Shown: piece by piece, positions 3,693-46,831 of the stretch
How the letters are laid out: every line of letters starts with the position of its first letter
Numbering within the stretch: the first letter of the stretch is position 1
Assembly (NCBI RefSeq): GCF_013315695.1
Contig: NZ_CP054353.1
Strand: one strand, 5' to 3'
From: Escherichia coli
GTDB taxonomy: Bacteria > Pseudomonadota > Gammaproteobacteria > Enterobacterales > Enterobacteriaceae
Length of the DNA: 64,000 nucleotides
Made by a program: the position numbers and the translations under genes
The notes under the pieces: model-generated
What the model was told of the DNA's origin: nothing
Databases searched by the model: none
What the model saw: only the letters and a program-made list of their open reading frames with translations

Positions 3693-4124
3693 ATGTTCCT
3701 GAAAACAGAACAATTTGAATATAACGGTGTATCCGTCACGCTTTCTGAGCTGTCTGCGCTGCAGCGTATTGAGCATCTTGCCCTCCTGAAACGGCGGGCA
3801 GAAGAGGCTGAAGCCAGCGGCAACCTGCAGGTGAGTGTGGAAGATCTTGTCAGAACCGGCGCGTTTCTGGTGGCGATGTCCCTGTGGCATAACCATCCAC
3901 AGAAAACGCAGTCACCGTCAATGAATGAGGCCGTGATGAAGATAGAGCAGGAAGTGCTCACCACCTGGCCTGCCGATGCCATTGCCCGGGCGGAAGACGT
4001 GGTGTTGTGCCTGTCCGGGATGATCGAAGCTGTTCGTCCGGATACTGATATTACTGAAGTGGCGAAAAATAACACGCTGACTGATGATGATTTTTCTGCG
4101 GGAAAGTCTTCGACGGCGAGCTGA
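3693..4124 (+). CDS. G: Tail assembly chaperone G
   Basis: 143 aa; MFLKTEQFEYNGVSVTLSELSALQRIEHL... matches lambda gpG. Confidence 0.85.
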   Translation: MFLKTEQFEYNGVSVTLSELSALQRIEHLALLKRRAEEAEASGNLQVSVEDLVRTGAFLVAMSLWHNHPQKTQSPSMNEAVMKIEQEVLTTWPADAIARAEDVVLCLSGMIEAVRPDTDITEVAKNNTLTDDDFSAGKSSTAS

Positions 4125-4564
4125 ACTTTGCCCTCAGACTGGCGCGTGAGATGGGGAGACCCGACTGGCGCGCCATGCTTGCCGGGATGACATCCACCGA
4201 ATATGCCGACTGGCACCGTTTTTACCGCACGCATTATTTTCAGGATACCCAGCTGGATATGCATTTTTCCGGGCTGACGTACGCTGTACTCAGCCTGTTT
4301 TTTTGCGATCCGGATATGCATCCCTCTGATTTCAGTCTGCTTGTCCCCCGGCATGAGGAAGAGCAGGTGGAGAGGCCGGATGAGGACAAAATGCTGATGC
4401 AGAAAGCGGCAGGACTTGCCGGAGGCGTCCGGTTCGGTGGGGACGGAGGGCGCGATATTTTATCGTCTGCGGATGTGGCGGATGTCATGGTGGATGATGC
4501 CGCATTAATGATGGCTTCAGCGGGGATTCCGGGAGGTGTGAGATATGTCCCAGCCGGTTGGTGA
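3693..4564 (+). CDS. T: Tail assembly chaperone G-T fusion (via -1 frameshift at 4100-4106)
   Basis: T-frame ORF 4151-4564 resembles lambda gpT and overlaps the start of H; geometry identical to the lambda G/GT system. Confidence 0.7.
4100..4106 (+). other. Programmed -1 ribosomal frameshift slippery heptamer GGGAAAG (G to G-T fusion)
   Basis: Heptamer is read GCG-GGA-AAG in the G frame (frame 0); the downstream T ORF is in the -1 frame (frame 2) and is open from this point. Confidence 0.75.
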
Positions 4565-31834: not shown

Positions 31835-32626
31835 GTGCAGCACGAGACAAAAATGGAAAACCAGAGCTGGTTGAAAAAACTCGCACGCCGCCTGGGGCCT
31901 GGTCATATCGTTAATCTCTGCTTTATCGTGGTATTGCTTTTTTCCACCTTGCTCACCTGGCGTGAAGTGGTGGTGCTGGAAGATGCCTATATCTCCAGCC
32001 AGCGTAATCATCTGGAAAACGTAGCCAACGCGCTCGATAAGCATTTGCAGTATAACGTCGACAAACTGATCTTTTTGCGTAATGGCATGCGCGAAGCTCT
32101 CGTGGCGCCACTGGATTTCACCTCTCTGCGTAATGCCGTAACCGAGTTCGAACAGCATCGCGACGAGCACACCTGGCAAATCGAACTCAACCGACGGCGC
32201 ACCCTGCCAGTCAATGGCGTATCGGATGCATTAGTCAGCGAGGGGAATCTCCTGTCTCGCGAAAATGAAAGCCTCGACAATGAAATTACCGCTGCACTGG
32301 AAGTTGGTTACTTGCTGCGACTGGCGCACAACTCCTCGTCGATGGTTGAACAGGCGGTGTATGTCTCGCGTGCTGGATTTTACGTTTCGACGCTGCCGAC
32401 CTTGTTTACGCGCAATGTACCAACGCGTTATTACGGCTATGTCACCCAACCCTGGTTTATCGGCCATTCACAACGAGAAAATCGTCACCGCGCGGTACGC
32501 TGGTTCACTTCGCAACCGGAACACGCCAGCAATACTGAACCGCAGGTTACCGTCAGTGTTCCGGTAGACAGTAATAACTACTGGTTGATCAGACATGAGA
32601 TAAATGAAGGGGGATCCGTGAGATAA
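31835..32626 (+). pseudogene. dgcQ: Diguanylate cyclase DgcQ (YedQ), 5' fragment only (periplasmic sensor domain); truncated by prophage insertion
   Basis: About 264 codons matching the DgcQ N-terminal region, then a premature stop in phage-derived sequence; no TM or GGDEF domain follows. Confidence 0.8.
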
Positions 32627-32628
32627 AT
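32596..32628 (+). repeat. Two direct copies of TGAGATAAAT, 23 bp apart, at the prophage left terminus (candidate transposase-binding end repeats)
   Basis: Copies at 32596-32605 and 32619-32628, immediately after the point where the dgcQ frame diverges. Confidence 0.4.
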
Positions 32629-32781
32629 AACGAATTGGAGTGGGTTAACATGGGTTCTGGTGAACAGAACTGAAATTCTTTTCCGCTATACGATAGATAA
32701 GTCGGGCATTGAAATCATCCTTCCTGGCAACTTAGAATCGAGTTTGCTGAAACATGACCCGTAACAAAAAGGATGATTCCA

Positions 32782-33693: not shown

Positions 33694-34092
33694 TTATCTG
33701 GATTTGTTAACGTCTTTCGTCTCCTCTGGCAGATCTTCATCAAACAACCTGCCCTGCATCCGATCCAGTTCTTCTTTTCTGACCCGCTTAACCACGCTGT
33801 AGACCCACTGAAGCGAAACACCAAAATTGCGGGCCAGTTCGTGGTGGTTGCGTCCGTTAAACTCCCTGAAGATTTCCCGGTCGCGCTGACTGACCTTCCA
33901 TACCATGCCCATCGGGAAATAAACGTTTTGCCCGCCCCAGACCTGCATCATTCGGTTCGCGACGGCCTGACCAATCTGGTCGGCAATTGCGGGCTCAATA
34001 TCAATAATCTCGCGAACGGTCTCAGAGGTATGCTGTGCCAGTTCCACCAGGAGTTCCGGCCCTTTACTTCGAAACTGATTCAGGTCGCTCAT
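33694..34092 (-). CDS. mor: Mor/C-family transcriptional activator (middle/late gene activator)
   Basis: 132 aa; C-terminal HTH ...ELARNFGVSLQWVYSVVKR... typical of the Mu Mor/C family. Confidence 0.7.
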   Translation of the reverse strand: MSDLNQFRSKGPELLVELAQHTSETVREIIDIEPAIADQIGQAVANRMMQVWGGQNVYFPMGMVWKVSQRDREIFREFNGRNHHELARNFGVSLQWVYSVVKRVRKEELDRMQGRLFDEDLPEETKDVNKSR

Positions 34093-38721: not shown

Positions 38722-40491
38722 TCAGTTGCCGTTAACAATGCTGATAACACTGCTGCGTGCCGGCGTGGTCAGCGTGGCCATGACTTCATCCAGTGCAGCT
38801 TCCGGTACGCCGTCCGGGTACTGTGCCGTTAACTGGCGGTAATGTTCCGGCGTCCAGGTAAGGCCGTCGGCGCTGAACTTATCGCGCAGGGCTTTCGCGG
38901 CCTCCACATGAGTCATGGGACGTTGTTCAGTGCGCGGCCCGCGTACGTCAGAGGCCTGACCACGCTTCGGCATATAGGCCGGAAGTGTGGTGTCGTCGAT
39001 ATGTTTATACGGGTCAAGCCGCCCGCCGAACGGCAGCGCCTTCGCCTTGCGTGCGGCGGCTGCATCTGCGGCGTTGTCTGTACCGGTAACCAGCGCTTCA
39101 GTTTCTTTTGCCGCCATCTGTGCCGAGGTTTCCGGCAGGGCTTTGTAACTTTCGCCAAATACCGCCGCGCCTTCAGCAAAGCCAAACTCGTTCTTTCTGA
39201 CCTCTTCGACCAGGAAGAACGTCTCGTGGCCGTCCTCACCGGTCAGAACCACCTGTGCCACATCGCTGCGCCATGGGTTACGGGTAATCATCAGTTTTTC
39301 ACCAACCAGTACGCCCGGTACCGTTGATACGTCAAATTCAGTGCCCCGGAACGAGACACGAAGTTTTGGCGTGACTTTGCGGAGTTCTGGTGCCGCCACA
39401 GCCAGTTCACGACATACCTCAACGGAAGGCGCTTTTTTCAGCTGCTCAGCAGTAATCTTCAGCCAGATATCCGTGCGGGTTTTACCGTGGCGGCTGTGAA
39501 CAGCCGTGGCGTTAAAGTGGCTGCGCCATTTCGCGGCCAGCGCGTTGAGTTCTTCCAGACTGTGAACCGGCCGGAACTTCAGCCCCGGCTCCAGCTTGCG
39601 TTCGATAATGTCACGCGCCTTTTCCACCTGTCCGGTGGCGCGGGCGTTATGCGGCTTGTGCGCTATCAGGTCGATGCCCAGTGAGCGGCACATGTTTTTC
39701 GTCATACCCGCGGTGTTTGCCGAGCCGGGGTCGAGATAGAGTATTTTCGGCACGCCGTGCAGCACGTCTGCGCCGCCACGCTCCTGCATGGCGTTGATAA
39801 GCACAGAGCACAGGTTCTCACCTGATTCCGCGCCCGTCACATACTCAACGTAAATCCAGCCGCTGGCATGGTCGGTAATCTCGTAACTCCACACGCGGTC
39901 ACTGGCGATACGGGCAAGGTTAGCGGGCTTGTTCTTGTAGAACTTCGCGCTGTCCATCACCTGCAGCCCTTTATGTCCATTGCTCAGGTAGTAAAGCGTG
40001 CAGAGTGAGGCGTCAATCTGCCAGACATGATTGGGATGCAGACTGGCCACTTCGGTATGTGGTGCAGGGGCATCCAGTTGTTCCGGGTGCAGGCCATAGT
40101 TACGCAGAGCACGGCTGATGGCATCTTCAGACAACGGGAAAAACTCACTGGTGGTTTCATCTGTTCTGCCTGCGGTGATAAAGCCGTTAGCCCGCAGGGT
40201 TTCCACTGCATCTGCGATGGAATAGAGACGCTTACCGTTCTTGCGGGTGGCCTCACGCAGTGTGGCAGATATCAGCGCGGCTTCGTCGCGGGTCAGGGCG
40301 CTGCGCCCGGCATCGGCGCGTTTTTTGCGTTTATCAGTCACAGAGACCTCCTTCAGCCTGCGCAGCAGAGTGGCGCGGGACATGCCAAGTTCAGCACAGG
40401 CAGCGTCGTATATTGCACCGCGTTTACCATGCCCCGCGTCACGTGCCGCGCGGGCGACATAAACCAGTCGTTCAGTCAGGGCAGCATTCAT
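38722..40491 (-). CDS. A: DDE transposase (Mu A-like, integrase-fold catalytic core)
   Basis: 589 aa; N-terminal HTH, central core with HVWQIDASL-type first Asp region, C-terminal domain. Confidence 0.75.
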   Translation of the reverse strand: MNAALTERLVYVARAARDAGHGKRGAIYDAACAELGMSRATLLRRLKEVSVTDKRKKRADAGRSALTRDEAALISATLREATRKNGKRLYSIADAVETLRANGFITAGRTDETTSEFFPLSEDAISRALRNYGLHPEQLDAPAPHTEVASLHPNHVWQIDASLCTLYYLSNGHKGLQVMDSAKFYKNKPANLARIASDRVWSYEITDHASGWIYVEYVTGAESGENLCSVLINAMQERGGADVLHGVPKILYLDPGSANTAGMTKNMCRSLGIDLIAHKPHNARATGQVEKARDIIERKLEPGLKFRPVHSLEELNALAAKWRSHFNATAVHSRHGKTRTDIWLKITAEQLKKAPSVEVCRELAVAAPELRKVTPKLRVSFRGTEFDVSTVPGVLVGEKLMITRNPWRSDVAQVVLTGEDGHETFFLVEEVRKNEFGFAEGAAVFGESYKALPETSAQMAAKETEALVTGTDNAADAAAARKAKALPFGGRLDPYKHIDDTTLPAYMPKRGQASDVRGPRTEQRPMTHVEAAKALRDKFSADGLTWTPEHYRQLTAQYPDGVPEAALDEVMATLTTPARSSVISIVNGN

Positions 40492-41969: not shown

Positions 41970-42052
41970 TGTTGTCTCCTTTGTTGATGCAATGATGTTT
42001 GTTTTATATGTGATAGATTATGAGAACTATTGTTCTCATTGTCAATGAGGTT
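41970..42052. promoter_or_regulatory. Divergent early/immunity control region with 20-bp palindromic operator candidate ATGAGAAC-tatt-GTTCTCAT (42020-42039)
   Basis: AT-rich intergenic region between divergent regulators; perfect 8-bp inverted repeat. Confidence 0.5.
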
Positions 42053-42481
42053 TGTGTGAATTTTGATTCTCTTTGCGCGTCGCGGTTCAAAGCTGAGCGT
42101 TCGCGGTTATCACTCAAGCAGGCTGAAGTAGCAGCCCTTTGTGGCGTTTCAAGAGAAATGTGGGGGAAATATGAACGAGGGGTTGCTGTTCCCGGAGGTG
42201 AGTTACTTGCAGCCTTTGCAAGAATTGGGGCCAATGTACAGTTCATTCTTACCGGGGAGTCATCAGGTATAACTTTATCACGTGATGAAATGGAGTTACT
42301 GCAGCACTACCGGCAGGCACCATTACAGGTCAAAGGTTCAGTTTTGTCGGCCTTGACTACTGGCTCCTCCAGAGAACGGGCGGAACAGGTTATTCATGGA
42401 GATGTTCTGGGGAATGTTATCAAAGGTAACGTAACCATAGGAACAGGTGGAATAATGAACAAAAATACCAAGAGAAGATGA
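42053..42481 (+). CDS. XRE-family HTH repressor (putative prophage immunity repressor)
   Basis: HTH ...LSLKQAEVAALCGVSREMWGKYERG...; start proposed at GTG 42053 (GAGG 5 nt upstream); ORF-track ATG 42020 lies inside the palindrome. Confidence 0.6.
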   Translation, partial: CVNFDSLCASRFKAERSRLSLKQAEVAALCGVSREMWGKYERGVAVPGGELLAAFARIGANVQFILTGESSGITLSRDEMELLQHYRQAPLQVKGSVLSALTTGSSRERAEQVIHGDVLGNVIKGNVTIGTGGIMNKNTKRR

Positions 42482-43464
42482 GTAAAGAGAAGCAAACAGT
42501 TAACGGGGATGTGGGTAACGTTGTCAGCGGTGATGTTACCATTCATAACTATTCTGCTGACATACTTCCTTCGGCCCAGCAACCAATTTCGTTGCTGCAA
42601 AAACGCGATTTACACAGATTGATGGATGAATTGGTTGATCTGGGGGAAAGTAAGCGCGAGCTATGGATGACGATCCACACGAAACTTAATACCAAAACAG
42701 TTAATGAAATGACTGCGGCTGATTATCATGGTGCGGTTGAGATCCTTCAGAGATATGCACAACAGATCCAGAATATGAAGGACTGTAATCTTCTGGTCAG
42801 CAAAATAATGGCGCTTACTGACCCTGGGTATCGTCTTGACCGTGACAGATACTGTCTGAAGCATTTCGGTACAACCCATCTTAAAGGCCTAGACAAAGAG
42901 CAGTTGCAGGCTGTGTTTGGTTATTTTGATGATCTGCTGAATATTCGTGATGAGAGTAAAACTCTATCACCTCCATCGGAAAGCGGTGCAAAATCAGTCG
43001 CAACTGTACCAACCAGAAGCCGGAAGCCTCATGTAGTAGTGTTGGGGGGAGTGTTAGTTCTTGTAGCAATATTTTTCGTGGGAATGATTGTGTTCGCTGG
43101 TAAATGGGGAAATGCCAAAGCAGTAGCTTCTACTGAAACCAGCGTTTTTAACATTAAAACCAACGATAAAATAATAGAAGATTCCATCCCCGCACTGCGC
43201 AGCATGTTTCCAGGGTTAAATAAGTACTCAGATGATTTCCATTCGGTTTCAAGCTACAAGCAAAAAACGGGCTGGCATACCCTTAAATTTACTGTATCAG
43301 CAAAGGCATCCGTCCCCGAAAATTATAGTGTTAAGGGCAAGGTTTGTTACATTAACATAAGCCCTGATGGTAGTTATGCTCGGGTTTTGACTGCTCCATG
43401 TCGTTCACTGCTACTTGATCAGCAAAGCACTCCTGACAGTAAATACCGTTTTATTCTTAAATAG
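42478..43464 (+). CDS. Hypothetical single-pass membrane protein (328 aa), translationally coupled to the repressor
   Basis: ATGA start/stop overlap with repressor; about 175-aa cytoplasmic N-domain, TM (VVVLGGVLVLVAIFFVGMIVFA), about 120-aa C-terminal domain; no recognisable family. Confidence 0.6.
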   Translation: MSKEKQTVNGDVGNVVSGDVTIHNYSADILPSAQQPISLLQKRDLHRLMDELVDLGESKRELWMTIHTKLNTKTVNEMTAADYHGAVEILQRYAQQIQNMKDCNLLVSKIMALTDPGYRLDRDRYCLKHFGTTHLKGLDKEQLQAVFGYFDDLLNIRDESKTLSPPSESGAKSVATVPTRSRKPHVVVLGGVLVLVAIFFVGMIVFAGKWGNAKAVASTETSVFNIKTNDKIIEDSIPALRSMFPGLNKYSDDFHSVSSYKQKTGWHTLKFTVSAKASVPENYSVKGKVCYINISPDGSYARVLTAPCRSLLLDQQSTPDSKYRFILK

Positions 43465-43545
43465 AAAATAACAGCTGAATTACCATGGGATCAGAAAAAA
43501 GACAAAGGCGGCATCATGCTGCGTTCTGAAATTTTAATGTAAAAG

Positions 43546-44136
43546 GTGATGAACATGGCAGGGATTCAGGTTATCGCAGGAAGTTTTCCTAAAGGGTGGG
43601 CAAGCATGGGGTTCGGTACCATCGTGTTTGCCAAAAAAACAAAACAAGGCTTTCCTGAAAATATTGTATTAAATCTGAAAGAAGAGCTTTTATCGATTGA
43701 ACTTGCGGATAGTGAAGAGGAAAGCCGTATAGGTAAGGCGGCAGGCGCAGGTTTGCTTGGTGGATTAATCTTTGGTGGTGCAGGGTTGGTCATTGGAGGT
43801 TTGCTTGGTGCGGCGGACAAGACGAAAAAAACTATCACTTTTAAGGCAATGTTTACGGGAAATAGGTTACTTCTGGCTAAAACAGATTCAAAAACTTTTG
43901 TAAAACTTCAGTCAATTGCTGCTGATAATGCCCATAACGCATCTGTAATCAACATGAAGCAAACTAATAGGGGCGATGTTTCTTCTCGTAAACAACTAAC
44001 AGAAAATCCACAGCAGCAAGACTTACCTGCGCCCGCTACAACAGTAAAAATGACTGCCAAAGATAAGTTAGAATCGGCTCTTGGGCTGGGAATCATCGTT
44101 ATAGCTGTTTGGGCAATAATACACTTCTTTTTTTAG
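43546..44136 (+). CDS. Hypothetical glycine-zipper membrane protein (196 aa)
   Basis: Central GxxxG-rich segment AAGAGLLGGLIFGGAGLVIGGLLGAA and C-terminal TM LGLGIIVIAVWAIIHFFF. Confidence 0.55.
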   Translation: MMNMAGIQVIAGSFPKGWASMGFGTIVFAKKTKQGFPENIVLNLKEELLSIELADSEEESRIGKAAGAGLLGGLIFGGAGLVIGGLLGAADKTKKTITFKAMFTGNRLLLAKTDSKTFVKLQSIAADNAHNASVINMKQTNRGDVSSRKQLTENPQQQDLPAPATTVKMTAKDKLESALGLGIIVIAVWAIIHFFF

Positions 44137-44173
44137 TGCAGCCCTTCAGGGCTGTTTCTGTTCAGGAGGTATC

Positions 44174-44650
44174 TTAAGGATTATCCGGGGCGTTTTCCTG
44201 TTTGCCGTACTTCGGAGACGAACAACATTCTGTTGGCTGACCGGTGAGTTTACGTAACTCCTTCATGAGCAGCTCCTGATCGTAAACTGTCATCAGTGCC
44301 GCAATGGTGGCATGCAGTGCATCGGGCAGTATCCAGGGTTGCCGGCCCGTGGGGCATATAACATCCAGCAGCTCATTCGTCCGACAGATACGCTCCTCGC
44401 CGTATGACAACAGGCCCTGTCCCGTGTATTCCTCTAGCCTGATCACTGTGCCACCCCGTGGCTTCTGCCAGGTCGTCAGATCTTCGCCATTCATACGGCG
44501 CTCATTCTCCACGTCAGCAGCATCGACAATGACGCTGTTTCCGAGTTCCTGTTTCACCATCTCTTCTATCCGCGCCAGTACGTAACTTTTACCGCTGCCC
44601 ACAGGACCGGACACAGTGACAGTGATGACCGGATTCAGTGTGTGCGTCAT
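44174..44650 (-). CDS. Small P-loop NTPase (158 aa), function unknown
   Basis: Walker A GPVGSGKS at residues 25-32, Walker-B-like VIVDAAD; convergent with the membrane protein genes. Confidence 0.55.
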   Translation of the reverse strand: MTHTLNPVITVTVSGPVGSGKSYVLARIEEMVKQELGNSVIVDAADVENERRMNGEDLTTWQKPRGGTVIRLEEYTGQGLLSYGEERICRTNELLDVICPTGRQPWILPDALHATIAALMTVYDQELLMKELRKLTGQPTECCSSPKYGKQENAPDNP

Positions 44651-44780
44651 ATCGTATTCTCCTCTGTGAATAATTCATCGTTTATCCTGCACATCCCGTA
44701 TCCCCGGCTCTCTTAACGCGCTTTAAAATCCTTCGCGCCCTGTATTTGTGATGCTGTCTCCACCAAACGAGGAGACACAC

Positions 44781-45131
44781 ATGAAAAACCTGAAAAAATT
44801 CATTCCCCCTGTTAAAAAACCTCGCCTCAGCGGCTGGCTGCTGACCTCAGTGCTGTTGCTGGGCACCATCGCTCTGGTCTCACCACAGCAGCTGCCTGTT
44901 GTGATCTACAAGCTGGCACTCATCACGCTGGCAGCAGTGCTGGGTTACTGGCTTGACCGTTCGCTCTTCCCCAAAGCCCGTCCCGGTCAGTACCTGAAAC
45001 ATGACGACAGGCTGATGGCTGAAGGGCGTTTCCCGGTACAGACCGGCCTTCACCTGGTGTTTTCTGCTGCGTTAATCCGCCGTGCACTGATTGTTGCAGC
45101 GGTCTGCCTGGCTGTTGCGATGGGGCTTTAA
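44781..45131 (+). CDS. Putative holin (3 TM segments)
   Basis: 116 aa from ATG 44781 (GAGGAG upstream); first gene of lysis cassette upstream of endolysin. Confidence 0.5.
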   Translation: MKNLKKFIPPVKKPRLSGWLLTSVLLLGTIALVSPQQLPVVIYKLALITLAAVLGYWLDRSLFPKARPGQYLKHDDRLMAEGRFPVQTGLHLVFSAALIRRALIVAAVCLAVAMGL

Positions 45132-45133
45132 TC

Positions 45134-45874
45134 ATGAACTGGCCGCAGATCACCTGGATTGTATGCATGTCCCTGAAACTGGCTTTCGAAGCCTTTCGGG
45201 TCTTCATCAGAACCGAACGCCTGTCAGTCCGCGCCGGGACCTTTCTGGTTCATATGGCATGGGTATTCTTTGTCGCAATGTTGCTCTGGTGTGGCGGCTT
45301 TTTCAGCCAGGCATGCGCAGCACAACCTCCGCAGGCTGCGCTGCAGTATCGCGATGATGTGATCCGTAATGCCCGGCTTGAATGGGGACTGTCTGCGCCG
45401 GTGGCCGATTTCGCCGCGCAACTGCATCAGGAAAGCGGCTGGCGACCTGATGCGATCTCGCCGGCTGGCGCTCAGGGACTGGCGCAGTTCATGCCTGCCA
45501 CTGCCGACTGGATAAGCCAGTTGATACCGATGCTGAGCAGTCGTGAGCCGTTTAATCCGGCATGGGCTATCCGGGCGCTGGTCAGCTATGACCGCTGGCT
45601 GTGGCAGCGTGTCAGCGCCGCCAGTGACTGCGAGCGTATGGCCATGACACTGTCGGGCTATAACGGTGGTCTGGGCTGGGTACAACGGGACAGGCGGCTT
45701 GCATCACAGAAAGGTCTGGACAGCACCCGCTGGTTCGGACATGTCGCCACGGTGAATGCCGGACGCAATGCGGCCAGCTGGCGGGAGAACCGCCATTATC
45801 CGCAGCGCATCCTGCGCGAACTGGCACCGCGATATCTCACATGGGGAGGCAGCAGTTGTGTGGCATCTGGTTAA
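45134..45874 (+). CDS. Endolysin, lytic transglycosylase (SLT domain) with N-terminal hydrophobic signal-anchor-release-like segment (start may be 45254)
   Basis: Catalytic region ...HQESGWRPDAISPAGAQGLAQFMPATA...; hydrophobic Gly-containing N-terminal stretch. Confidence 0.75.
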   Translation: MNWPQITWIVCMSLKLAFEAFRVFIRTERLSVRAGTFLVHMAWVFFVAMLLWCGGFFSQACAAQPPQAALQYRDDVIRNARLEWGLSAPVADFAAQLHQESGWRPDAISPAGAQGLAQFMPATADWISQLIPMLSSREPFNPAWAIRALVSYDRWLWQRVSAASDCERMAMTLSGYNGGLGWVQRDRRLASQKGLDSTRWFGHVATVNAGRNAASWRENRHYPQRILRELAPRYLTWGGSSCVASG

Positions 45875-46508: not shown

Positions 46509-46831
46509 CACTGCAGGTTGAATTCTGGACGGTGGTGAGTTTTTTGCTCACCTTCATGGGGTTTGTGGGAGGGCTCGCCAAATGGTTGTTCAGTAAAACA
46601 GAAGAACGCCAGGCGGCACGATTCGCCTCTCTTGAACAGGCCCTGCAACAGTCCGCATCCAACTGGGGCGAGCTGGAAAAAGAATTTATGCGATTTAAAG
46701 CGGATTTACCGCTGAATTATGTCCGTCGCGAGGATTATATCCGTGGCCAGACAGTCATCGAGGCCAAACTGGACGCGCTTTATAACAAACTGGAAGTGGT
46801 ACAGCAGTACCGCAATACCGGAGGTCAATAA
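46505..46831 (+). CDS. Small membrane-anchored protein (Mu gp25-like position)
   Basis: 108 aa; N-terminal TM then coiled-coil; between spanins and packaging genes. Confidence 0.45.
   Translation: MTLQVEFWTVVSFLLTFMGFVGGLAKWLFSKTEERQAARFASLEQALQQSASNWGELEKEFMRFKADLPLNYVRREDYIRGQTVIEAKLDALYNKLEVVQQYRNTGGQ

What the first reader, a model, noticed from the sequence alone, without database searches (positions are those of the whole stretch)
44174..44650. Orphan small P-loop NTPase wedged between cargo island and late operon
A 158-aa protein with Walker A GPVGSGKS and a Walker-B-like VIVDAAD is encoded on the opposite strand, convergent with the two membrane protein genes and divergent from the lysis/late operon. 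It has its own orientation, so it is not part of either phage operon, and looks like a moron. Small P-loop kinases and NTPases in such positions are often toxins or defence effectors, or could partner with the adjacent membrane proteins.
Basis: partly seen in the sequence, partly recalled or inferred. Interest (0 to 1): 0.55.

Follow-up and report, generated by a model that had tools for sequence, protein, structure and literature searches.

The report
Short mini-P-loop phage accessory gene
The ORF is a real, selected gene: the short form of an uncharacterised, highly mosaic phage protein family that always sits back-to-back with the lysis genes of BcepMu-like (Mu-type) prophages of E. coli; its database name "ABC transporter ATPase" is unsupported and its function is still unknown.

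Summary
Window 44174..44650 (-) encodes a 158-aa protein with Walker A GPVGSGKS. It lies convergent with two membrane-protein genes and divergent from the holin/late operon of a BcepMu-like transposable prophage inserted in E. coli dgcQ.

It is not an orphan. It belongs to PHROG 3787 (E 2e-107, function unknown). The exact protein is on at least 1000 public contigs, and the gene is in 582 of 5426 complete E. coli genomes. dN/dS is 0.15-0.26.

It is the short isoform. The ST131/PhiKM form has 242-247 aa, and a recombination joint lies at 44174-44195.

The family is a mosaic: a conserved 75-aa mini-P-loop head, a helical module, and interchangeable tails. In seven more distant relatives the gene occupies the same slot, about 130 nt from the holin gene.

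No Pfam, NCBIfam, PADLOC or fold-search result assigns it to ABC, zeta-toxin, KAP or any defence family. The confident head model has no structural neighbour.

A conserved 16-bp dyad lies about 42.5 bp upstream of -10-like hexamers on both sides. This suggests co-activation with the late genes by the prophage's Mor-type activator.

The toxin or defence reading is neither supported nor excluded. Interest is modest.

The parts
44174..44650 (-). CDS of 158 aa. It is the short isoform of the PHROG 3787 family and is identical to RefSeq WP_000149906.1, which is named 'ABC transporter ATPase'.
44426..44650 (-). N-terminal 'mini-P-loop' module, residues 1-75. It is the only part conserved across the whole family (32-57% identity in distant relatives). 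In L025 a relative is a stand-alone ORF of about 75 aa.
   Evidence: (AF2 pLDDT 91.5, pTM 0.78)
44585..44608 (-). Walker A motif GPVGSGKS, residues 15-22. G20 and K21 are invariant. G15, G18 and S22 are conserved in at least 90% of sequences.
44243..44338 (-). Helical module, residues 105-136 (PWILPDALHATIAALMTVYDQELLMKELRKLT). It recurs at the C-terminus of distant homologues (P0024, P0026). In P0063 it occurs without the P-loop head.
44174..44195 (-). Recombination or deletion joint that creates the short isoform. Homology to the long-form gene of PhiKM/ST131 ends at about 44186. The last codons and the stop codon resemble the 3' end of a 71-aa ORF that lies downstream in PhiKM, read in another frame. 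The encoded tail (residues 141-158) is predicted to be disordered.
44659..44664 (-). Ribosome-binding site GAGGAG, 8 nt upstream of the ATG.
44684..44689 (-). -10-like hexamer CAGGAT (CAGAAT in some relatives) of the predicted leftward promoter. It lies exactly 23 nt from the dyad in 10 of 11 loci examined. It is deleted in strain A24.
   Evidence: Promoter function is inferred.
44713..44728 (.). Conserved 16-bp element TTAACGCGCTTTAAAA. Its first 14 bp form the dyad TTAAnGCGCnTTAA, whose centre is at about -42.5 relative to both predicted start sites. It is the candidate binding site of the Mor-family activator.
   Evidence: The comparison with Mu Pm is from PMC4390567.
44750..44755 (+). -10-like hexamer GATGCT of the predicted late (lysis) promoter. 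It lies 21 nt from the 16-bp element in all loci. There is no -35 element.
33694..34092 (-). Gene for the Mor-family transcription activator, at the end of the early operon. It is the candidate trans-activator of both divergent promoters.
   Evidence: RefSeq annotation of the identical prophage

Best explanation
The ORF is the 158-aa short isoform of an uncharacterised, phage-specific, modular protein family (PHROG 3787). The family fills a fixed slot in BcepMu-like transposable prophages: the first gene transcribed leftward from the late/lysis promoter region.

The protein has three parts:
- An autonomous 75-aa mini-P-loop head that probably binds a nucleotide or phosphate ligand.
- A two-helix module.
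- A disordered tail, left where the C-terminal module of the 242-247-aa isoform was lost by recombination.

The gene is under purifying selection and is dispensable for the phage type as a whole.

Its promoter lacks a -35 element and shares a 16-bp dyad with the divergent late promoter. I therefore infer that it is switched on together with the lysis and late genes by the prophage's Mor-type activator, that is, during lytic growth. In relatives a Dam methylase gene lies downstream.

The most likely role is an accessory host-takeover or counter-defence factor. In this reading the conserved P-loop head supplies a nucleotide-dependent activity and the interchangeable tails supply target specificity.

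Status of each step:
- Shown: family membership, isoform structure, slot conservation, selection, absence of any known-family signature.
- Inferred: activator dependence and late timing.
- Speculative: the counter-defence role.
For: Family membership and isoforms:
- PHROG 3787 at E 2e-107, matching profile positions 1-157 of 242.
- 92% identity to residues 1-157 of the 242-aa PhiKM protein.
- Isoforms of 247, 182, 158 and 141 aa exist. Three separate 90%-identity clusters of the 158-aa form all end in PDNP*.

Selection and spread:
- dN/dS is 0.15-0.26.
- The gene is in 582 of 5426 complete E. coli genomes.

Modular architecture:
- Distant homologues share only residues 1-75 and carry mosaic tails.
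- The helical module recurs, and occurs without the P-loop head in P0063.
- In KP12 and strain 8178 the same slot holds an ORF built from a module that forms the tail of the P-loop homologues P0037, P0050 and P0051.

Slot conservation:
- Seven distant loci have the gene divergent from Holin_2-3/SLT genes, with a gap of about 130 nt.

Head module:
- The head folds confidently on its own (pLDDT 91.5, pTM 0.78).
- It exists as a stand-alone ORF of about 75 aa.
- Relatives occur in large, apparently virulent phages next to virion genes. This argues for a phage-cycle role rather than lysogenic conversion.

Regulation:
- No sigma-70 promoter is found in the intergenic region.
- The 16-bp element and both -10-like hexamers are conserved, with invariant 23-nt and 21-nt spacers whose own sequence varies.
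- A Mor-family gene is present in the prophage.
- A Mor dimer binds a 16-bp element centred at -43.5 of the Mu middle promoter Pm (PMC4390567). Mu late promoters have -10 hexamers but lack -35 hexamers (PMC2582627).
Against: - No expression data exist. The promoter assignment is purely comparative, and the -10-like hexamers are weak matches to the consensus (CAGGAT, GATGCT).
- No biochemical evidence shows nucleotide binding. Some family members have GKN in place of GK[ST].
- The head model shows only two helices by DSSP. It has no structural neighbour among the very many P-loop NTPase structures. It may not be an NTPase at all.
- In this window the gene has no dam partner, and its long-form tail is missing, so this allele could be functionally reduced.
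- Nothing links the family directly to any defence or counter-defence system.
Confidence: 0.4

Rival explanations
1. The gene is a lysogen-expressed moron whose small P-loop product is a toxin, or an abortive-infection or exclusion effector. It might work together with the adjacent membrane proteins.
For: - The gene lies in the variable repressor-to-lysis region and is present in only some relatives.
- The mosaic tails are typical of genes evolving under conflict.
- The adjacent genes 42478-43464 and 43546-44136 follow the repressor gene on the same strand, and the first overlaps the repressor's stop codon. They are therefore probably expressed in the lysogen.
- About 97 genomes carry the whole configuration seen in this window.
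Against: - PADLOC gives only P-loop-level noise, with E of 0.007 or worse. Pfam Zeta_toxin scores E 0.13.
- There is no antitoxin-like partner and no bicistronic arrangement.
- The P-loop gene occurs without the membrane genes in ST131, and the membrane genes occur without it in strain 8178.
- The intergenic region has no sigma-70 promoter. Its architecture matches an activator-dependent late promoter.
- Relatives occur in apparently virulent large phages.
Confidence: 0.2
2. The gene is a regulator or timer of the late phase. In this reading the protein modulates the Mor-type activator, late transcription or holin translation from its position next to the late promoter.
For: - The gene lies immediately divergent from the late promoter, as many regulators lie next to their targets.
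- A conserved hairpin in the holin leader hides the Shine-Dalgarno sequence and would need to be opened.
- The two-helix module could bind nucleic acid. This is speculation.
Against: - The occupant of the slot is interchangeable, and the P-loop head is absent from otherwise very similar phages whose late promoter and leader are the same.
- No helix-turn-helix or RNA-binding family matches the protein.
Confidence: 0.12
3. The gene is a decaying remnant. The 158-aa ORF would be a truncated, non-functional leftover of the 242-247-aa gene, produced when the cargo island was inserted or exchanged.
For: - Homology to the long form stops about 10 nt before the stop codon, at a recombination joint.
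- The encoded tail is predicted to be disordered.
- Clearly degraded alleles exist, for example in strain A24, which has a promoter/RBS deletion and a truncated ORF.
Against: - dN/dS is 0.15-0.26 across codons 1-152.
- The 158-aa form is kept intact in three 90%-identity clusters that are 83-97% identical to the window protein.
- An even shorter 141-aa form, ending just after the helical module, is also widespread.
- The break falls after both folded modules.
- The RBS, the start codon and the promoter-like elements are all intact.
Confidence: 0.1
4. The gene encodes a conventional ATPase, as the databases name it: ABC transporter ATPase, EcfA2 or KAP NTPase.
For: - RefSeq and UniProt use these names.
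- There is weak similarity to the Walker A helix and the following strand of ABCB nucleotide-binding domains.
Against: - Pfam ABC_tran scores E 0.18 and KAP_NTPase E 0.019 on the whole protein.
- All NCBIfam scores are far below their curated cut-offs.
- There is no LSGGQ signature, Q-loop or H-loop.
- The conserved region is only 75 aa.
- No permease genes lie nearby.
- Fold searches find no P-loop NTPase neighbour.
Confidence: 0.03

Closest known systems
PHROG 3787 (phage protein family of unknown function), for example Escherichia phage PhiKM XRL29432.1 and the ST131 prophage protein WP_000194951.1
   Same: The window protein is 92% identical to these proteins over residues 1-157. It has the same slot, orientation, intergenic region and late-operon neighbours.
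   Different: The window protein lacks the C-terminal module of about 85 aa (158 aa against 242-247 aa). The genes downstream also differ: here a terminator-like hairpin and membrane-protein cargo, there a 134-aa ORF, a 71-aa ORF and dam.
P-loop NTPases in general (Walker A/B fold), including ABC nucleotide-binding domains and small nucleotide kinases
   Same: The Walker A motif GxxGxGKS follows a hydrophobic strand and precedes a helix. An acidic residue follows the next hydrophobic stretch. The best sequence resemblance is to the ABCB segment 'GSGKST..LIERFY....G.V.IDG.DI'.
The com-mom late accessory operon of phage Mu, and Mor/C-dependent promoters
   Same: Both involve an accessory, non-essential unit of a transposable phage. 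Both are apparently driven by an activator-dependent promoter with a -10 hexamer, no -35 element and a dyad near -43. In relatives the unit is linked to DNA modification, by dam there and by mom in Mu (PMC4390567, PMC2582627).
   Different: There is no sequence homology to Com or Mom. The position in the genome differs: next to the lysis genes here, at the right end in Mu. Regulation has not been tested experimentally. The window allele has no methylase partner.
Prophage morons and defence or anti-defence hot spots (for example lambda rexAB and the P2/P4 hot spots)
   Same: The gene occupies a fixed genomic slot whose content is variable and mosaic across otherwise collinear prophages.
   Different: No known defence family matches. 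The predicted promoter type suggests lytic-phase expression rather than expression in the lysogen.

Membership tests
PHROG 3787 | Significant match to the family profile HMM | tested here: met
   E 2.1e-107 and 359 bits.
PHROG 3787 | Full-length architecture (profile positions 1-242) | tested here: not met
   Only profile positions 1-157 are matched. The C-terminal module is absent. The protein is a member, as a short isoform.
P-loop NTPase (generic) | Conserved Walker A motif GxxxxGK[ST] | tested here: met
   GPVGSGKS. G20 and K21 are invariant, and G15, G18 and S22 are conserved in at least 90% of 31 diverse sequences. A few relatives have GKN.
P-loop NTPase (generic) | Conserved Walker B motif (hhhhD/E) | tested here: inconclusive
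   D43 of VIVDAAD is not conserved. An acidic residue at position 46 is common, and the Glu of VIRLEE (residue 74) is present in about 70% of sequences.
P-loop NTPase (generic) | Complete alpha/beta core that is recognisably similar to known P-loop structures | tested here: not met
P-loop NTPase (generic) | NTP binding or hydrolysis | not testable with these tools
   This needs purified protein.
ABC transporter ATPase (the RefSeq name) | Pfam ABC_tran or NCBIfam match above threshold, plus LSGGQ signature, Q-loop, H-loop and a permease neighbour | tested here: not met
   ABC_tran scores E 0.18. NCBIfam scores are 10-15 bits against cut-offs of 156 bits or more for the ATPase and kinase models. 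The sequence has no SGG motif. The neighbours are phage genes.
Zeta/PezT-type toxin kinase | Zeta_toxin domain and an adjacent antitoxin gene | tested here: not met
   Zeta_toxin scores E 0.13 and matches only the P-loop. The gene is monocistronic, lying between a terminator-like hairpin and the intergenic region.
Known anti-phage defence systems (PADLOC-DB 2.0) | Match to a defence-protein model | tested here: not met
   The best hit is E 0.007 and 13 bits, on the P-loop segment only. The neighbouring genes also have no hits.
Moron | Variable presence among otherwise collinear phages | tested here: met
   The P-loop head is absent from KP12, Phi06_2974 B and the strain 8178 prophage.
Moron | Own constitutive promoter and terminator, with expression in the lysogen | tested here: inconclusive
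   No sigma-70-like promoter is found. The hairpin at 44138-44155 has no U-tract on the minus strand. Expression has not been measured.
Mor/C-dependent (middle or late) transcription unit | A -10 hexamer without a -35 element, a dyad-symmetric activator site centred near -43, and an activator gene in the phage | tested here: met
   This was tested in silico only. The 16-bp element lies 23 nt from CAGGAT on the left and 21 nt from GATGCT on the right, with invariant spacing across divergent loci. A Mor-family gene lies at 33694-34092. Binding and activation have not been tested.

The most novel reading that the evidence does not exclude
The conserved head of about 70-75 aa is a natural, autonomously folding minimal P-loop domain, far smaller than any characterised P-loop NTPase. 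It would act as a nucleotide- or immune-signal-binding unit (a sponge or a switch). Phages would fuse it combinatorially to different tails in a late-expressed counter-defence hot spot next to the lysis cassette. The window gene would then be one allele of a new class of phage anti-defence proteins, carried by about 11% of complete E. coli genomes, including the pandemic ST131 clone.
Probability: 0.12. Interest if true: 0.75.

Novelty: new variant of a known kind. Interest (0 to 1): 0.35.

Why it matters
If the inference holds, three things follow.

1. A gene present in roughly one in nine complete E. coli genomes, including ST131, is misnamed 'ABC transporter ATPase'. It is instead a phage accessory protein.
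2. BcepMu-like prophages have a defined, activator-controlled slot next to the lysis genes where modules are shuffled. That is a good place to look for new counter-defence or host-takeover functions.
3. The 75-aa head would be an unusually small natural P-loop domain, of interest for how phosphate-binding loops work outside the canonical fold.

If it turns out to be just another small nucleotide-binding accessory protein with no measurable phenotype, the finding is ordinary.

Tried and rejected
Searches that gave no family assignment:
- Pfam, NCBIfam and PADLOC scans of the protein returned only generic P-loop noise.
- Pfam scans of 31 head modules gave hits scattered over ABC_tran, T2SSE, AAA_30, Zeta_toxin, KAP and other families, none of them specific.
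- A PDB profile search found only the ABCB Walker-A region and designed P-loop proteins.
- PHROG scans of the tails of distant homologues returned only families of unknown function.
- PADLOC and PHROG scans of the neighbouring cargo genes gave no known defence family and only unknown PHROGs.

Searches that found little or nothing:
- tblastn against 50,697 phage records found only PhiKM.
- Literature searches for the protein accessions and the PHROG id found nothing. A search for ST131 Mu-like prophage papers found nothing specific.
- The search for related loci with the alignment failed because the alignment has no sufficiently conserved stretch. It was rerun with a single sequence.

Hits rejected:
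- P0040 and P0049 from the representative search are long repeat proteins whose scores come from many weak stretches added together.
- The IMG/VR hits L026, L030 and L031 match only about 20-26 residues around the P-loop. I do not count them as relatives.

Ideas rejected:
- Late activator: rejected because a Mor-family gene exists elsewhere in the prophage and the slot's content is interchangeable.
- Obligate partnership with the membrane proteins: rejected because each occurs without the other.

Full report
**The observation**

Window 44174..44650 (minus strand) is an ATG-initiated ORF of 158 aa. A GAGGAG ribosome-binding site lies 8 nt upstream of the start. The protein carries GPVGSGKS at residues 15-22 and VIVDAAD at residues 40-46.

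The gene is convergent with 42478..43464(+) and 43546..44136(+). It is divergent from the holin gene (44781..45131), the SLT endolysin gene (45134..45874) and the late operon.

It is a real gene, on three grounds:
- It matches PHROG 3787 at E 2e-107.
- The identical sequence is found on at least 1000 public contigs.
- Nei-Gojobori dN/dS against three alleles is 0.15-0.26.

**Where the window comes from**

The window is E. coli chromosome carrying a BcepMu-like (Bcepmuvirus) transposable prophage inserted in dgcQ.

The early operon runs leftward. It encodes a Ner-like protein, an IclR-type HTH protein, a DUF3102 protein, the DDE transposase (38722-40491), an ExeA-like ATPase, Gam, gp16/GemA and a Mor-family activator (33694-34092).

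A repressor-like HTH gene (42020-42481) faces rightward. The late operon starts at the holin gene. The stretch between the repressor and the holin gene is variable in this phage type. BcepMu has gp18-20 there (PMC2628397).

**Not an orphan, but a short isoform**

Phage PhiKM and the ST131 prophage (ZH193, EC958) encode a 242-247-aa protein in the same place. It is 92% identical to the window protein over residues 1-157.

Nucleotide homology stops at window 44186. The last codons, the stop codon and about 45 nt beyond it resemble the 3' end of a 71-aa ORF that lies further downstream in PhiKM, read in another frame. The short form therefore arose by deletion or recombination.

It is not a one-off. 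E. coli has isoforms of 247, 182, 158 and 141 aa. Three different 90%-identity clusters of the 158-aa form, 83-97% identical to the window protein, all end in PDNP*.

The gene is present in 582 of 5426 complete E. coli genomes. About 106 carry the window-type allele and about 436 carry the ST131-type allele.

**A mosaic family in a fixed slot**

An exhaustive HMMER search found 54 representatives; two of them (P0040, P0049) were rejected as repeat-protein artefacts. Beyond E. coli, only residues 1-75 are conserved, at 32-57% identity. The remainder is a patchwork of unrelated modules, each matching only unknown-function PHROGs.

The second folded part of the window protein is the helical module at residues 105-136. 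It recurs at the C-terminus of P0024 and P0026. In P0063 it occurs without the P-loop head.

In KP12 and the strain 8178 prophage, which lack the P-loop head, the same slot holds an unannotated ORF. Its main module is the tail of the P-loop homologues P0037, P0050 and P0051.

In seven distant loci (L006/L007, L009, L012/L013, L022, L023, L024) the gene is divergent from a Holin_2-3/SLT cassette, with a gap of about 130 nt. In five of them a dam methylase gene follows on the same strand.

A second subfamily occurs in a large uncultured phage of about 141 kb, next to virion structural genes. A stand-alone version of about 75 aa exists in L025.

**What kind of protein it is**

Pfam, NCBIfam and PADLOC give only sub-threshold, P-loop-driven hits. 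When 31 head modules are scanned one by one, the hits scatter over unrelated P-loop families.

The best PDB sequence resemblance is to the Walker A helix and the following strand of ABCB nucleotide-binding domains, and to designed minimal P-loop proteins. That resemblance explains the database name 'ABC transporter ATPase'. The signature motif, Q-loop, H-loop and any permease gene are all missing.

AlphaFold2 gives mean pLDDT 73.6 for the whole protein. Residues 10-70 score above 90, and the tail at 141-158 scores below 50. The head alone gives pLDDT 91.5 and pTM 0.78.

The head is therefore a P-loop-bearing mini-domain, not a recognisable complete NTPase.

Family conservation corrects the motif reading. 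G15, G18, G20, K21, S22, I28 and W61 are conserved in at least 90% of sequences. D43 of 'VIVDAAD' is not conserved. The Glu of 'VIRLEE' is common.

**Regulation (inferred)**

The 130-nt intergenic region has no sigma-70-type promoter. Across loci whose proteins are only about 40-55% identical, three elements are conserved while the spacers between them vary in sequence but not in length:
- A 16-bp element TTAACGCGCTTTAAAA (44713-44728), whose first 14 bp form the dyad TTAAnGCGCnTTAA.
- GATGCT, 21 nt to its right.
- CAGGAT or CAGAAT on the other strand, 23 nt to its left.

This puts the dyad centre at about -42.5 of both predicted start sites.

In phage Mu, a Mor dimer binds a 16-bp element centred at -43.5 of the middle promoter Pm (PMC4390567). 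Mu late promoters have -10 hexamers but lack -35 hexamers (PMC2582627). The prophage encodes a Mor-family protein.

I therefore infer a bidirectional, activator-dependent promoter. The slot gene would be made together with the lysis and late genes, not in the lysogen. The leftward elements are conserved whichever module gene fills the slot, including in KP12 and strain 8178. They are deleted in the degraded A24 allele.

**Function**

Nothing assigns a biochemical role. The evidence that bears on it is:
- purifying selection;
- a conserved phosphate-binding loop;
- interchangeable tails;
- dispensability among relatives;
- the likely late timing;
- frequent linkage to dam;
- occurrence in virulent-type phages.

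Taken together, I favour an accessory host-takeover or counter-defence factor with a nucleotide-dependent head. My confidence in that role specifically is about 0.25.

The rivals fare as follows:
- Toxin or defence moron: not excluded, but it has no positive support.
- Pseudogene: contradicted by selection and by the intact expression signals.
- Canonical ABC or KAP ATPase: fails its defining features.

**Verdict**

The gene is a catalogued but uncharacterised and misnamed phage accessory gene. Its interest lies in the minimal P-loop head and the modular, apparently Mor-controlled slot. The 'orphan toxin' idea adds nothing to that.

Noticed in passing
window 42020-44136 (+): The repressor-like HTH gene (42020-42481) overlaps by 4 nt (ATGA) with a 328-aa membrane-protein gene (PHROG 10002). 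A 196-aa membrane-protein gene (PHROG 12025) follows, then a terminator-like hairpin at 44138-44155. These genes are probably co-transcribed with the repressor in the lysogen, in a rexAB-like arrangement, which makes them better candidates for exclusion or defence than the P-loop gene. They have no PADLOC hit.
   Followed up: partly
window 44755-44777 (+); also L012 and L006: A conserved hairpin in the predicted holin leader (GUCUCC...GGAGAC) sequesters the holin Shine-Dalgarno sequence. Its free energy is -9.8 kcal/mol (z = -3.3). In L012 it is -11.7 kcal/mol, with a shifted and extended stem. This may be translational control of lysis.
   Followed up: partly
L005 6094-6417 (-); L002 5614-5937 (-): An unannotated ORF of about 107 aa (MTEPKQ...) fills the slot in the strain 8178 prophage and in phage KP12. 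It has the same RBS and promoter geometry. Its 'YTLS...RSHFA.GE.N.M.IG.V.ATS' module is the C-terminal module of the P-loop homologues P0037, P0050 and P0051.
   Followed up: partly
L015 (E. coli A24) 4036-4508: This is a degraded allele. A deletion of about 44 nt removes the leftward -10-like hexamer and the RBS, and the ORF is cut within the helical module. RefSeq calls it 'KAP family NTPase' from an upstream ATG.
   Followed up: partly
window 44174-44650; RefSeq WP_000149906.1: The database names 'ABC transporter ATPase', 'EcfA2' and 'KAP family NTPase' rest only on the Walker A region and appear to be misannotations that have been propagated. The long isoform is named 'hypothetical protein'.
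   Followed up: yes
window about 31835-32584 and about 32585-32780: The prophage is inserted in dgcQ (yedQ), which is annotated as a truncated pseudogene in the identical genome NZ_LR898874. The left prophage end lies just to the right of the dgcQ remnant.
   Followed up: no
L004 5134-5752 (ST131 prophage): In the long-form configuration a 134-aa ORF (PHROG 2266) on the opposite strand overlaps the 3' end of the P-loop gene by 25 nt, and it overlaps the start of the 71-aa ORF (PHROG 4490) by 2 nt. This tightly packed, convergently overlapping trio lies upstream of dam and is of unknown function.
   Followed up: no
window 46770-46785 (+): There is a weak second copy of the 16-bp element (TGGACGCGCTTTATAA, 3 mismatches) inside the late operon, just upstream of the gene that starts at 46831. 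It could be an internal activator site or a chance match.
   Followed up: no
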